Program-made: the position numbers and the translations under genes
Assembly: GCA_041917755.1 (NCBI GenBank)
Contig: JAYRWY010000016.1
Location: 37,932-101,931 of the forward strand
Direction of reading: 5' to 3'
Source: Alphaproteobacteria bacterium
GTDB lineage: Bacteria > Pseudomonadota > Alphaproteobacteria > UBA9219 > RGZA01
DNA length: 64,000 bases
Notes under the pieces: model-generated
Seen by the model: only the letters and a program-made list of their open reading frames with translations
The model's database searches: none
Told to the model about the DNA's origin: nothing
Part shown: in pieces, positions 36,238-37,259 of the stretch
Layout of the letters: the number at the start of each line of letters is the position of its first letter
Numbering within the stretch: position 1 is the stretch's first letter

Positions 36238-36313
36238 CTTCTTGATCATTCGCTGAAAGTATTTCGATGTTTGAAACCTCCGGGTTCAACACGTAGGTTA
36301 CTTGCATATTTTG

Positions 36314-37249
36314 ATGGATATTTTTATGCGATTACACGAGCTCCGTGCCGTTTACGATGATTTTTTTGATCCGAACCTTCGGAAGTGGGCCTATACACAA
36401 TCCCCGACATCCCACGAACTATCCCGCAGCCAGTTGAGGATAGTAAGACCTAAAAAATCGGTTAGCATCTTATACCGCGTTGTCAAAGGCGAATTGACAA
36501 AACGTGCCCCCCGTGTTTTTGCCAAAACACCTGATATCATTGATAACCCGGCCAGCGATGGCGACCAGATTGTAGAACTATTTTGTCTCCAGTTATTCAA
36601 AAAAGCAGGCATCGATTTTTTAGTAGCCCCCGCCATATTGGCACATGTGAAGCAAAATCACGCCGATGCCTCACCTATCCTCGTATCTTTTGCCCCTACT
36701 GGCAGTGATATGGATATGAATGACATACCGGTTGACACAGTAAATGCAGAAAAGTTGAAGCAGGTGATATCAGCTTTTTCTGCTATTTATGTTGCACGTC
36801 TCATGATCCGTGATGGAGACTTAAATCCTGCCAATGATCGCTTTGAACCAACGCACCAGTTGTTATTTGGCATTGATTTTGATCCTGCTTATGATCCAAA
36901 CGAACCTATCACAACCGATAAAATTACTAAAAGCTGGCCTCACAGCATTCAACTCAAATTGACATTAAGCGACTGTAAATATGCGCTCTGGGATATTTCA
37001 AAACGCACCAAAACCCCATCACTGGATATGAACATTGTAAAGGATACTGTACTTGCGTTTTGCGCCATACCTGATACAGAAGTACAATCTCTGCTTGAAC
37101 AATTCTCCACAACCTTCAGCTCTCCAACTCTTGTTAAAAAGTTGCAATACATCTCACATGGCTTCTTAACTGCCCGTCAAACGCTGCAGCGAATGGTTAT
37201 GGGACCTCCAGATGAAAATCAGTTTCTATCTTTTGCCTTAAAGCCATAA
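36314..37249 (+). CDS. Hypothetical protein with an atypical protein-kinase-like fold, inserted between rbfA and truB
   Basis: The track start 36302 is TTG. The first ATG choices are 36314 and 36326. Candidate kinase elements are a catalytic-loop-like IRDGDLNPAN (D-x4-N), the metal-binding loop GIDFDP, a beta3-Lys-like VFAK and an alphaC Glu. GC is about 41%, against about 52% for its neighbours. Confidence 0.5.
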   Translation: MDIFMRLHELRAVYDDFFDPNLRKWAYTQSPTSHELSRSQLRIVRPKKSVSILYRVVKGELTKRAPRVFAKTPDIIDNPASDGDQIVELFCLQLFKKAGIDFLVAPAILAHVKQNHADASPILVSFAPTGSDMDMNDIPVDTVNAEKLKQVISAFSAIYVARLMIRDGDLNPANDRFEPTHQLLFGIDFDPAYDPNEPITTDKITKSWPHSIQLKLTLSDCKYALWDISKRTKTPSLDMNIVKDTVLAFCAIPDTEVQSLLEQFSTTFSSPTLVKKLQYISHGFLTARQTLQRMVMGPPDENQFLSFALKP

Positions 37250-37259
37250 ACTCCAGCAA

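What the first reader, a model, noticed from the sequence alone, without database searches (positions are those of the whole stretch)
36238..37259. Low-GC gene for an atypical kinase-fold protein inserted between rbfA and truB
nusA-infB-rbfA-truB-rpsO-pnp is one of the most conserved bacterial gene strings, and rbfA and truB are normally adjacent. Here a 312-315 aa ORF sits in a 1-kb gap, 11 nt before truB, at about 41% GC against about 52% for infB and truB. It has no transposase or repeats around it. The protein has elements of a protein-kinase-like fold. These are a catalytic-loop-like IRDGDLNPAN (Asp-x4-Asn spacing as in HRDLKPEN, APH HGDLHPGN and RIO HGDLSEYN), a metal-binding loop GIDFDP (compare DFG, and IDF in RIO/Bud32-type kinases), a VFAK beta3-Lys candidate and an alphaC Glu. 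It has no canonical Gly-rich loop. RIO and Bud32-type kinases work on small-subunit ribosome maturation, and rbfA is a 30S maturation factor. A RIO-like kinase embedded here would be a striking functional association. It could instead be an acquired effector or toxin that targets a translation factor.
Basis: partly seen in the sequence, partly recalled or inferred. Interest (0 to 1): 0.65.

Follow-up and report, generated by a model that had tools for sequence, protein, structure and literature searches.

The report
Acquired orphan gene splitting rbfA–truB
A real, foreign-looking gene with no detectable relatives has been inserted between two normally overlapping ribosome-related genes in one small lineage of uncultured alphaproteobacteria; it may encode a very divergent minimal protein kinase, but this is unproven, and its position reflects an insertion-prone site, not a role in ribosome assembly.

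Summary
A 307-aa ORF (36326-37249; up to 315 aa from TTG 36302) fills a 1,022-bp gap between rbfA and truB. It ends 10 nt before truB and has GC 0.43 against 0.52-0.54 for its neighbours. The open frame is not chance (P about 3e-8).

The junction is variable. Four outgroup lineages and one ingroup genome have rbfA overlapping truB by 4-11 nt, and one genome has an empty 84-nt gap. One sub-clade carries an unrelated minus-strand gene of 122-132 aa. Only the window's species (three strains) and its sister species carry this ORF. In the sister only the 20-codon tail is assembled (12/20 aa identical, same stop position). This argues against a functional link to rbfA.

The protein is an orphan. Nothing matched among 1.84 billion representative proteins, Pfam, NCBIfam, PHROGs, PADLOC, the PDB, phages or plasmids. 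AlphaFold2 failed (pLDDT 37-39).

The kinase reading is plausible but unproven, at about 0.4. Residues 127-189 resemble the hinge, catalytic loop and Mg loop of the Shigella kinase OspG (z 5.3, P about 0.001), with Asp/Asn/Asp in register. In anchored Pfam tests the segment scores above eight motif-only controls and five genuine distant kinases. No stand-alone profile hit exists, the N-lobe has no support, and OspG was chosen after the fact.

The parts
35827..36237 (+). rbfA, the upstream core gene. In relatives its 3' end overlaps truB.
   Evidence: PF02033 on the identical product in L001/L025. The alignment to relatives breaks exactly at its stop codon.
36238..36325 (+). 88-nt leader of the insert. 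It contains the alternative starts TTG 36302 and ATG 36314.
   Evidence: No promoter-like or terminator-like site. No similarity to the spacers of relatives. Start contexts lack a Shine-Dalgarno sequence, as do the neighbouring genes.
36326..37249 (+). The inserted gene. It encodes a 307-aa soluble orphan protein (34.7 kDa, pI 7.05, no transmembrane segment).
   Evidence: Chance open frame P 2.7e-8. GC 0.427, GC3 0.41. It is present in three strains with only synonymous changes. An ortholog tail is present in a sister species. No homolog in any library.
36704..36892 (+). Residues 127-189, the segment that resembles the hinge, alphaE, catalytic loop and Mg loop of OspG.
   Evidence: Smith-Waterman score 57 against a shuffled null of 31.6 +/- 4.8, P about 0.001. 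It is the top outlier among 60 window proteins, z 5.3. Anchored PF22303 score is 174.2 bits, against 163.4-172.5 for 8 motif-only shuffles and 162.5 for a full shuffle.
36812..36835 (+). DGDLNPAN (residues 163-170), the catalytic-loop-like motif. D165 would be the catalytic base and N170 a Mg ligand.
   Evidence: Read directly from the sequence. It aligns ungapped with OspG YDLNTGN. The Pkinase and Kdo alignments extend through it only with the real sequence.
36872..36883 (+). IDFD (residues 183-186), the candidate DFG-equivalent Mg-binding loop. D184 lies 14 residues after N170.
   Evidence: Same spacing and context as in OspG (LFPIDFRNIY against LFGIDFDPAY). The ABC1 and OspG_kinase alignments extend through it.
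37250..37259 (+). 10-nt spacer between the ORF stop and the truB start.
   Evidence: Sequence. The sister species has a 12-nt spacer in the same arrangement.
37260..38213 (+). truB, the downstream core gene. Homology with relatives resumes at its start codon.
   Evidence: PF01509/PF16198. Alignment A1.

Best explanation
The feature is a genuine, horizontally acquired, lineage-restricted accessory gene.

Origin and spread. It was inserted into the rbfA|truB junction in the common ancestor of the window's species and its sister species. This small alphaproteobacterial clade has opened that junction at least twice, each time with unrelated cargo. The insert carries no mobility genes, repeats, promoter or terminator. 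It was most likely gained and spread by homologous recombination through the flanking core genes (inferred).

Expression. It is probably transcribed by read-through of the nusA-infB-rbfA-truB-rpsO operon. Ancestrally truB was translationally coupled to rbfA by a 4-11-nt overlap. truB now starts 10 nt after this ORF's stop, so truB expression has probably become coupled to translation of the insert (inferred).

Product. The protein is a soluble 34.7-kDa orphan. The most likely specific mechanism, at about 0.4, is a very divergent minimal protein-kinase-like phosphotransferase of the OspG/RIO/Bud32 type. In that reading D165 is the catalytic base and N170 and D184 are Mg ligands. The kinase would serve a strain-level accessory role such as conflict, toxin or effector function, not ribosome maturation. 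The remaining probability lies mostly with an unrelated fold that carries a chance motif.
For: Real gene. Chance open frame has P 2.7e-8, and the other frames hold 9-23 stops. GC1>GC2 coding pattern. Three strains from three sequencing runs keep it intact, with 2 and 1 changes, all synonymous. The sister species (TruB 87% identical) preserves frame and stop position over the 20-codon tail: 12/20 aa, 6 synonymous-only codons against 8 replacements, rough dN/dS 0.3.

Acquired. GC 0.427 against 0.52-0.54, GC3 z -2.0, lowest 2.7% of 1-kb windows.

Insertion-prone junction. Alignment homology breaks at the rbfA stop and resumes at the truB start. Outgroups P0012, P0014, P0020 and P0026 and ingroup L003 have rbfA/truB overlaps of 4-11 nt. 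L017 has an empty 84-nt gap. L002, L012-16, L004 and L027 carry an unrelated minus-strand gene of 122-132 aa. The TruB tree places the two cargos in sister sub-clades. The inserts share no DNA similarity.

Recombination-type spread. Within the species the ORF is less diverged than its flanks: 1/924 against 27/4009 bp, Poisson P about 0.015; and 2/924 against 25/3924 bp. Hotspots without mobile elements that turn over by recombination at flanking core genes are described in PMC5635113.

In-line expression. Same strand, no terminator-like or promoter-like sites.

Kinase-like core. Smith-Waterman against OspG (sequence verified against PDB 4BVU) gives z 5.3, P about 0.001. The alignment has SDMDMNDIPVD/SDIDTADIP-D, DLNPAN/DLNTGN and LFGIDFDPAY/LFPIDFRNIY in register. 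It is the top outlier of 60 real proteins. Anchored Pfam scoring: the OspG_kinase model gives 174.2 bits for the real segment. Eight motif-preserving shuffles give 163.4-172.5, five genuine kinases of other families 168.3-171.7, and NleH2 187.1. Pkinase gives 48.5 against 42.4-44.2, and Kdo 112.6 against 108.8.
Against: No kinase-clan profile reaches even E 0.25 on the protein or on motif-centred fragments alone. The PDB sequence search found no kinase.

The ABC1 and APH models see nothing beyond the motif itself: 185.3 against 181.2/190.4, and 68.9 against 70.8. The N-terminal half adds nothing with Pkinase and only +2.7 bits with OspG. There is no Gly-rich loop.

Pairwise tests against NleH2, Bud32, UbiB, WaaP and WaaY are null. 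OspG was chosen after the fact, and the ORF was itself picked out for its motif, so the nominal P of 0.001 does not survive a full multiple-testing correction. The anchored test barely separates genuine distant kinases from motif-only controls.

No usable structure model exists. Expression and translational coupling are inferred, not shown. The selection evidence rests on very few substitutions.
Confidence: 0.6

Rival explanations
1. The protein has an unrelated, as yet unknown fold, and the kinase-like motifs are a chance resemblance. The gene is still a real acquired accessory gene whose biochemical activity cannot be named. It could be a conflict or defence protein, a toxin, or a phage-derived 'moron' gene.
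For: No stand-alone profile or PDB hit to any kinase. The N-lobe is unsupported and there is no Gly-rich loop. The ABC1 and APH models see only the motif. Only one of six pairwise kinase comparisons is positive, and it was selected after the fact. With about 60 proteins and about 40 kinase-clan families, a nominal P of 0.001 is expected by chance. The low-confidence AF2 models are all-helical, also where the N-lobe strands should be. A second family-less low-GC insert lies 3.7 kb away.
Against: The OspG alignment is in catalytic register, with all three catalytic residues, identical spacing, and an extra hinge match that was not part of the original motif. The real segment beats all 8 motif-preserving controls and 5 genuine distant kinases on the OspG model. 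It is the single outlier among 60 real proteins. No PADLOC or PHROG family matches either.
Confidence: 0.5
2. One reading: a RIO/Bud32-like kinase recruited into the operon because it acts with RbfA on 30S subunit maturation.
For: The gene lies in line between rbfA and truB and is probably co-transcribed. OspG, the closest match, is itself weakly RIO2/Bud32-like.
Against: The gene is absent from nearly all relatives. The ancestral junction is an rbfA/truB overlap. Sister lineages have the site empty or filled by an unrelated gene on the opposite strand. The composition is foreign. The tail evolves much faster than TruB, 60% against 87% identity. The RIO1 profile does not match. Bud32 pairwise z is 1.1.
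Confidence: 0.04
3. A non-functional remnant: a recently acquired ORF that is not expressed or is on its way to being lost.
For: It is an orphan with atypical codon usage and no recognisable ribosome-binding site. There are no homologs.
Against: A 315-codon open frame at 43% GC (P 2.7e-8). It is intact in three strains with synonymous-only changes. Frame and stop are conserved in a sister species despite 30% nucleotide divergence. The neighbouring essential genes also lack a Shine-Dalgarno sequence. truB now depends on this region for its upstream context.
Confidence: 0.05
4. Cargo of a small mobile element (IS, MITE, integron cassette or integrative element) that targets this site.
For: Two independent insertions at the same junction. 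Assemblies of the sister species break inside the gene.
Against: No transposase or integrase, no terminal inverted or direct repeats above chance, no attC-like structure, and no tRNA nearby. The boundaries coincide with the rbfA stop codon and a point 10 nt before the truB start, without target duplication. In strain 3 the two contigs overlap by 22 nt, so that break is an assembly-graph artefact.
Confidence: 0.05

Closest known systems
OspG / NleH minimal type-III effector kinases (Pfam PF22303 OspG_kinase; PDB 4BVU, 4Q5E, 4LRJ, 4LRK)
   Same: About 63 residues align from the hinge to the Mg loop. They share SDxDxxDIP, D-L-N-x-x-N, and then, 14 residues later, L-F-x-I-D-F-x-x-x-Y. The D..N..D spacing is identical. 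Neither protein has a canonical activation segment motif (APE). Both are isolated, horizontally acquired genes.
   Different: There is no significant profile match. Outside the aligned segment identity is nil. P0001 is 307 aa with a 120-residue helical C-terminal extension, whereas OspG is 196 aa. P0001 has no GxGxxG (OspG has GQGS). The host is an uncultured environmental alphaproteobacterium, and no secretion system is evident in the window. OspG needs host E2~ubiquitin for activation (PMC9950578), which is irrelevant here.
RIO and Bud32/PRPK atypical kinases
   Same: The xGDLxxxN catalytic loop and the IDF Mg loop. The overall size matches a minimal kinase core. OspG itself hits RIO2 and Bud32 weakly.
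   Different: No RIO1 or Kdo profile hit. Bud32 pairwise z is 1.1 and out of register. There is no conserved association with ribosome or tRNA-modification genes across relatives.
Horizontal-gene-transfer hotspots between core genes that lack mobile elements (Oliveira et al. 2017, PMC5635113)
   Same: Different accessory genes occupy the same interval between two conserved core genes in related genomes. No integrase or transposase is present. The within-species pattern fits exchange by recombination through the flanks.
   Different: The cargo is very small (a single gene). The site lies inside a tightly packed, ancestrally overlapping and translationally coupled operon, an unusual place for a hotspot. 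Only two cargo types have been seen so far.
Cargo A: the 122-132-aa minus-strand ORF at the same junction in L002, L004, L012-L016 and L027
   Same: It occupies exactly the same rbfA|truB interval. It also has no family match and a lower GC (0.44-0.46).
   Different: It has an unrelated sequence, lies on the opposite strand with its own conserved upstream spacer, and is less than half the size.

Membership tests
Protein-kinase-like (PKL) superfamily | Significant sequence or profile match to a kinase-clan family | tested here: not met
   No Pfam kinase model at E<=10 on the whole protein or on 5 fragments. No PDB kinase by phmmer. Only 12.5 bits (E 0.15) to PF22303, and only within a UbiB-anchored chimera.
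Protein-kinase-like (PKL) superfamily | Catalytic loop D-x4-N followed by a Mg-binding Asp (DFG equivalent) about 13-18 residues later | tested here: met
   D165-L-N-P-A-N170, then D184 in IDFD, 14 residues after N170. This is in register with OspG D/N/D. The Pkinase, Kdo, ABC1 and OspG_kinase alignments extend through these positions in anchored chimeras.
Protein-kinase-like (PKL) superfamily | N-lobe with beta3 Lys paired to alphaC Glu and a Gly-rich loop | tested here: inconclusive
   Candidates K67 and E84 have PKA-like spacing. However, the P0001 N-half fused to a true C-lobe adds 0 bits (Pkinase) or +2.7 bits (OspG) over shuffles. There is no GxGxxG.
Protein-kinase-like (PKL) superfamily | Bilobal fold with the catalytic residues clustered in the cleft | tested here: inconclusive
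   AF2 without an alignment gives pLDDT 36.8 for the full length and 38.8 for the C-half. Foldseek's best hit has E 2.5. No homologs are available to build an alignment.
OspG_kinase family (PF22303) | Score above the family's gathering threshold (27 bits) | tested here: not met
   No stand-alone hit. In anchored tests the segment gains about +12 bits over random and +7 over motif-only. The family member NleH2 gains about +25.
RIO kinases acting in small-subunit maturation | RIO domain profile match and conserved linkage to ribosome biogenesis | tested here: not met
   No PF01163 hit. The gene is absent from the junction in 9 of 12 related lineages.
Mobile genetic element cargo (IS, MITE, integron cassette or integrative element) | Transposase or integrase, terminal repeats, target-site duplication or an attC-like site | tested here: not met
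   None found within 2 kb. No Rfam match or tRNA. The boundaries coincide with the rbfA stop codon and a point 10 nt before the truB start, without target duplication.
Inter-core-gene HGT hotspot (sense of PMC5635113) | Several unrelated accessory gene families in the same interval between orthologous core genes across related genomes | tested here: met
   Four states in 12 lineages: overlap, empty gap, cargo A and cargo B. The tree supports two independent gains. Only two cargo families were seen, so this is a modest hotspot.
Known anti-phage defence systems | Match to a PADLOC model | tested here: not met
   No PADLOC family at E<=1 for P0001, cargo A or the 40929-41741 ORF.

The most novel reading that the evidence does not exclude
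The ORF founds a new, extremely divergent family of minimal protein kinases with an OspG/RIO/Bud32-like core plus a novel 120-residue helical C-terminal domain, in uncultured environmental alphaproteobacteria. It has been wired into the infB-rbfA-truB operon so that truB translation now depends on it. Its fast between-species divergence and its recent within-species spread would mark it as a conflict-type gene (toxin, defence or effector) rather than housekeeping.
Probability: 0.25. Interest if true: 0.55.

Novelty: new member of a known kind. Interest (0 to 1): 0.35.

Why it matters
If the kinase reading is right, this would be a kinase family invisible to every profile library. It would extend OspG-type minimal kinases, so far known from animal pathogens, to environmental bacteria.

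Whatever the protein does, the locus shows that one of the most conserved and tightly packed gene junctions in bacteria can be opened. The rbfA/truB pair is ancestrally overlapping and translationally coupled. Here foreign single-gene cargo has filled it repeatedly, without any mobile-element machinery. This is a compact natural example of recombination-driven hotspot formation inside an essential operon.

It is also a caution: synteny with ribosome genes does not imply a shared function.

Tried and rejected
1. Homolog searches with the ORF all returned only the protein itself: word-indexed search at E<=1e-3 and E<=10, exhaustive phmmer against 1.84 billion representatives, tblastn against plasmids and phages, and metagenome and viral contig scans.

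2. The two extra hits, P0002 and P0003, were rejected. Both are highly repetitive proteins in which one 26-29-bit chance match is summed over 6-14 repeats.

3. The WD40 hits in the PDB search were rejected for the same reason, with no stretch significant on its own.

4. DUF5308 (12-14 bits, E 0.08-0.3) was treated as noise.

5. AlphaFold2 on the full length and on the C-half is unusable, and Foldseek on the model is meaningless.

6. The in-frame 19-codon internal repeat (DLNPANDRFEP/DFDPAYDPNEP) raised the worry that the two 'kinase motifs' are just a duplication. An off-diagonal self-comparison shows it is at chance level (P 0.46).

7. A TruB-based metagenome scan for more junctions found nothing.

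8. The yeast Bud32 N-terminal anchor was not recognised by Pfam, so that chimera gave no information.

9. I looked for remnants of cargo A or of the L017 spacer inside the window's insert. None were found.

10. DnaA boxes (E. coli consensus) in the AT-rich gap upstream of dnaA are not enriched.
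Full report
**1. What is at the coordinates**

The window encodes rimP-nusA-infB-rbfA-[ORF]-truB-rpsO-pnp on the + strand.
- rbfA ends at 36237 and truB starts at 37260.
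- The 1,022-bp gap holds one long ORF, 36302-37249 (315 aa from TTG). In-frame ATGs lie at 36314 and 36326.
- The public gene call is the 307-aa form (P0001).
- The stop is followed by 10 nt before the truB ATG.

The frame is certainly meaningful. At the local base composition the chance of 315 stop-free codons is 2.7e-8, and the other five frames hold 9-23 stops.

Composition is atypical but not extreme.
- GC is 0.427, against 0.537 (infB), 0.538 (rbfA) and 0.525 (truB).
- GC3 is 0.41, against a window mean of 0.51 +/- 0.05.
- Only 2.7% of 1-kb windows are as low.
- The codon-usage score ranks 5th lowest of 60 ORFs.

Nothing in or around the gap points to a mobile element or a separate transcription unit. 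There are no flanking repeats above chance, no transposase, no promoter-like or terminator-like site, and no Rfam match.

**2. The junction in relatives**

I searched with TruB and obtained related genomes and contigs, then read their junctions.

| Lineage (TruB identity to window) | State of the rbfA-truB junction |
|---|---|
| Four outgroups, 61-66% (P0012, P0014, P0020, P0026) | rbfA overlaps truB by 4-11 nt |
| L003 (85%) | 4-nt overlap |
| L017 (84%) | empty 84-nt gap |
| L002, L012-L015, L016, L004, and by its spacer L027 | unrelated 122-132-aa ORF on the minus strand ('cargo A') in a gap of 614-667 bp |
| Window | the 307-aa plus-strand ORF ('cargo B') |

The multiple alignment shows that homology stops at the rbfA stop codon and resumes at the truB start codon. 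The window's insert shares no DNA similarity with the cargo-A inserts or with the L017 spacer.

A TruB neighbour-joining tree puts the cargo-A lineages in one sub-clade. The window falls in the sister sub-clade, together with the empty-junction genome. The ancestral state is therefore a translationally coupled overlap. The junction was opened and filled at least twice, independently, with unrelated genes in either orientation. This is hard to reconcile with a gene placed next to rbfA for functional reasons.

**3. The gene is not a one-off**

Two further sequencing runs contain the locus.
- L001 (ERR15459718) differs from the window at 27 of 5,185 positions. Within the ORF there are 2 changes, both synonymous.
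- Sample SRR28285716 (L024 plus L026, which overlap by 22 nt inside the ORF) has 1 synonymous change in the ORF against 27 in 4,009 bp of flanking genes.

The insert is thus less diverged among strains than its flanks (Poisson P about 0.015 for the third strain). This fits recent spread through the population.

In the closest sister species (P0005, TruB 87% identical), three independent assemblies all break 43-76 nt upstream of truB. What remains encodes QRMVTASPHRNQFLSIASNP*. This is homologous to the window's C-terminus QRMVMGPPDENQFLSFALKP*.
- 12 of 20 residues and 42 of 60 nt are identical.
- The frame and the stop position are the same.
- The spacer to truB is 12 nt.
- Six codons carry synonymous-only differences and eight carry replacements, for a rough dN/dS of 0.3.

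The gene therefore predates the split of the two species and is maintained as a coding sequence. Over the 20 assembled tail codons it has diverged much further than TruB (60% against 87% identity).

**4. The protein has no detectable family**

Every search came back empty.
- Pfam, NCBIfam, PHROGs and PADLOC gave nothing.
- The PDB sequence search gave only summed-repeat artefacts.
- The word-indexed search of 5.8 billion clusters gave only the protein itself, even at E<=10.
- The exhaustive phmmer search of 1.84 billion representatives gave the protein itself plus two repeat-protein artefacts.
- tblastn against plasmids and phages, and the metagenome and viral contig scans, gave nothing.

The protein is 34.7 kDa with pI 7.05 and no hydrophobic segment, so it is soluble. 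AlphaFold2 without an alignment fails: pLDDT is 36.8 for the full length and 38.8 for the C-half. Foldseek on the model is meaningless.

**5. Testing the kinase reading**

The motifs are present: VFAK67, E84, D163-G-D165-L-N-P-A-N170 and I-D184-F-D. Their spacing is almost that of PKA (K72, E91, D166, N171, D184). However, no kinase-clan profile matches the protein or five motif-centred fragments.

HMMER's filters hide weak matches, so I built anchored chimeras. A genuine kinase half was fused in register to the P0001 half and scored with Pfam. Controls were full shuffles and shuffles that keep DGDLNPAN and IDFD fixed (motif-preserving).

| Anchor and model | Real P0001 C-half (bits) | Motif-preserving shuffles (bits) | Full shuffles (bits) |
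|---|---|---|---|
| PknB N-lobe, Pkinase | 48.5 (runs to N170) | 42.4-42.8 | 42.5-44.2 |
| WaaP, Kdo | 112.6 | 108.8 | – |
| UbiB, ABC1 | 185.3 | 181.2, 190.4 | 173.4 |
| NPTII, APH | 68.9 | 70.8 | – |

The OspG_kinase model (PF22303) appeared unprompted on the real UbiB chimera, at 12.5 bits and E 0.15. I then used OspG as the anchor. Its sequence was verified as identical to PDB 4BVU.

| C-half spliced onto the OspG anchor | PF22303 score (bits) |
|---|---|
| Full shuffle | 162.5 |
| Eight motif-preserving shuffles | 163.4-172.5 (mean 167.1, sd 2.9) |
| NPTII | 168.3 |
| WaaP | 171.1 |
| PknB | 171.5 |
| UbiB | 171.5 |
| Bud32 | 171.7 |
| Real P0001 segment | 174.2 (alignment to profile position 132 of 152) |
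| NleH2 (family member) | 187.1 |
| OspG itself | 305.4 |

Other results:
- The P0001 N-half fused to a true C-lobe adds nothing with Pkinase and only +2.7 bits with OspG.
- Smith-Waterman of P0001 against OspG scores 57, against a shuffled null of 31.6 +/- 4.8 (P about 0.001). The alignment covers P0001 127-189 and OspG 107-162.
- Among the 60 real proteins of the window, P0001 is the lone outlier: z 5.3, next best 2.8.
- NleH2, Bud32, UbiB, WaaP and WaaY give no pairwise signal.
- The in-frame internal repeat between the two motifs is at chance level (P 0.46).

My reading is as follows. The C-terminal part of a kinase core (hinge, alphaE, catalytic loop, Mg loop) is plausibly present, and it is at least as OspG-like as genuine kinases of other families. 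The total signal is only about 12 bits. The N-lobe is unsupported. The comparison target and the ORF itself were both selected after the fact, and the anchored test hardly separates true distant kinases from motif-only sequences. I put the kinase-like fold at about 0.4.

**6. How it most likely works**

Shown:
- It is a maintained coding gene.
- Its composition is foreign.
- It is restricted to two sister species.
- It sits at a junction that has accepted other cargo.
- It lies in line with the operon, with no transcription signals of its own.

Inferred:
- It was acquired and spread by recombination through the flanking core genes, the mechanism proposed for hotspots that lack mobile elements (PMC5635113).
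- It is co-transcribed with infB-rbfA-truB.
- truB translation, ancestrally coupled to rbfA, is now coupled to the ORF's termination 10 nt upstream.
- The product is a cytoplasmic accessory protein, possibly a minimal kinase that uses D165, N170 and D184.
- The fast divergence of the assembled tail between species and the low diversity within the species suggest a conflict-type role, but this is speculation.

**7. Comparison with what is known**

The closest protein is OspG, and more loosely the RIO/Bud32 kinases. Membership in any of these families is not established, because the profile criterion was tested and not met.

The locus behaves like a small hotspot of horizontal transfer between core genes. 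Its location is unusual, inside an overlapping, translationally coupled gene pair of an essential operon.

**8. Verdict**

This is a real, acquired orphan gene. The kinase idea is a reasonable but unproven lead. The ribosome-maturation link is not supported. Interest is moderate to low (0.35). It would rise if a structure or an assay confirmed a new minimal-kinase family.

Noticed in passing
window 40929-41741 (+): A second lineage-specific low-GC insertion. This 270-aa ORF has GC 0.344, GC3 0.28 and the lowest codon-usage score in the window. It lies between pnp and a TauE/SafE-family gene (41738-42484). In L004, L012 and L016 pnp is followed directly by the TauE ortholog. There is no Pfam, PHROG or PADLOC hit. 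By eye it contains an Rx4H (HEPN-like) motif, NIRNEITH.
   Followed up: partly
L002 3509-3880 (-), L004 2696-3094 (-), L012-L016; L027 1-58: 'Cargo A' is a conserved 122-132-aa family-less ORF on the minus strand. It occupies the same rbfA|truB junction in a sister sub-clade (72% aa identity between L002 and L004). A conserved AT-rich spacer (…CTTAAAATACATTTAAAATG…) lies between it and truB. Function unknown.
   Followed up: partly
L009 1-75, L010 1-42, L011 1-42: Three independent assemblies of the sister species all break inside the 3' end of the ORF's ortholog, two of them at the identical base. This suggests strain-level heterogeneity or low coverage in this gene. The rest of the ortholog is not in the collections searched.
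   Followed up: partly
window 33607-38876 vs L001, L024, L026: Among three co-specific strains the insert carries 1-2 SNPs per 924 bp, while the flanking infB, rbfA and truB carry 0.6-1.2% divergence. Almost all changes are synonymous. This fits a recent sweep or transfer of the insert.
   Followed up: yes
window 13272-14588: A 1.3-kb AT-rich stretch (GC about 0.40-0.42) without long ORFs lies immediately upstream of dnaA (14589-16043, confirmed by Pfam), which is followed by dnaN and recF-like ORFs. It may be the replication-origin region. E. coli-type DnaA boxes are not enriched (a single 1-mismatch box at 13920).
   Followed up: partly
window 47027-48589 (-): A 520-aa ORF with GC 0.462 and the second most atypical codon usage in the window. 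It has no Pfam family and may be another acquired orphan.
   Followed up: partly
window 30316-30947, ORF 30404-30715 (+): A low-GC (0.40-0.45) gap of about 630 bp upstream of rimP holds a 103-aa ORF with no Pfam hit. It is not covered by the related loci, so its conservation is unknown.
   Followed up: no
L017 2917-3000 and 4286-5959; L018 4328-6041: Gene order downstream of rpsO also varies among relatives. L017 has a minus-strand 557-aa SNase-domain gene instead of pnp after rpsO, and its empty rbfA-truB gap contains a GC-rich hairpin (GTCATGCCC…GGGCATGAC). In L018/L019 rpsO is followed by rplU-rpmA-obg.
   Followed up: no
window 37260-37310 (truB 5' end): The first 10-15 or so codons of truB differ in length and sequence among lineages ([50 protein letters not shown]). 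Remodelling at the junction therefore reaches into the truB N-terminus.
   Followed up: no
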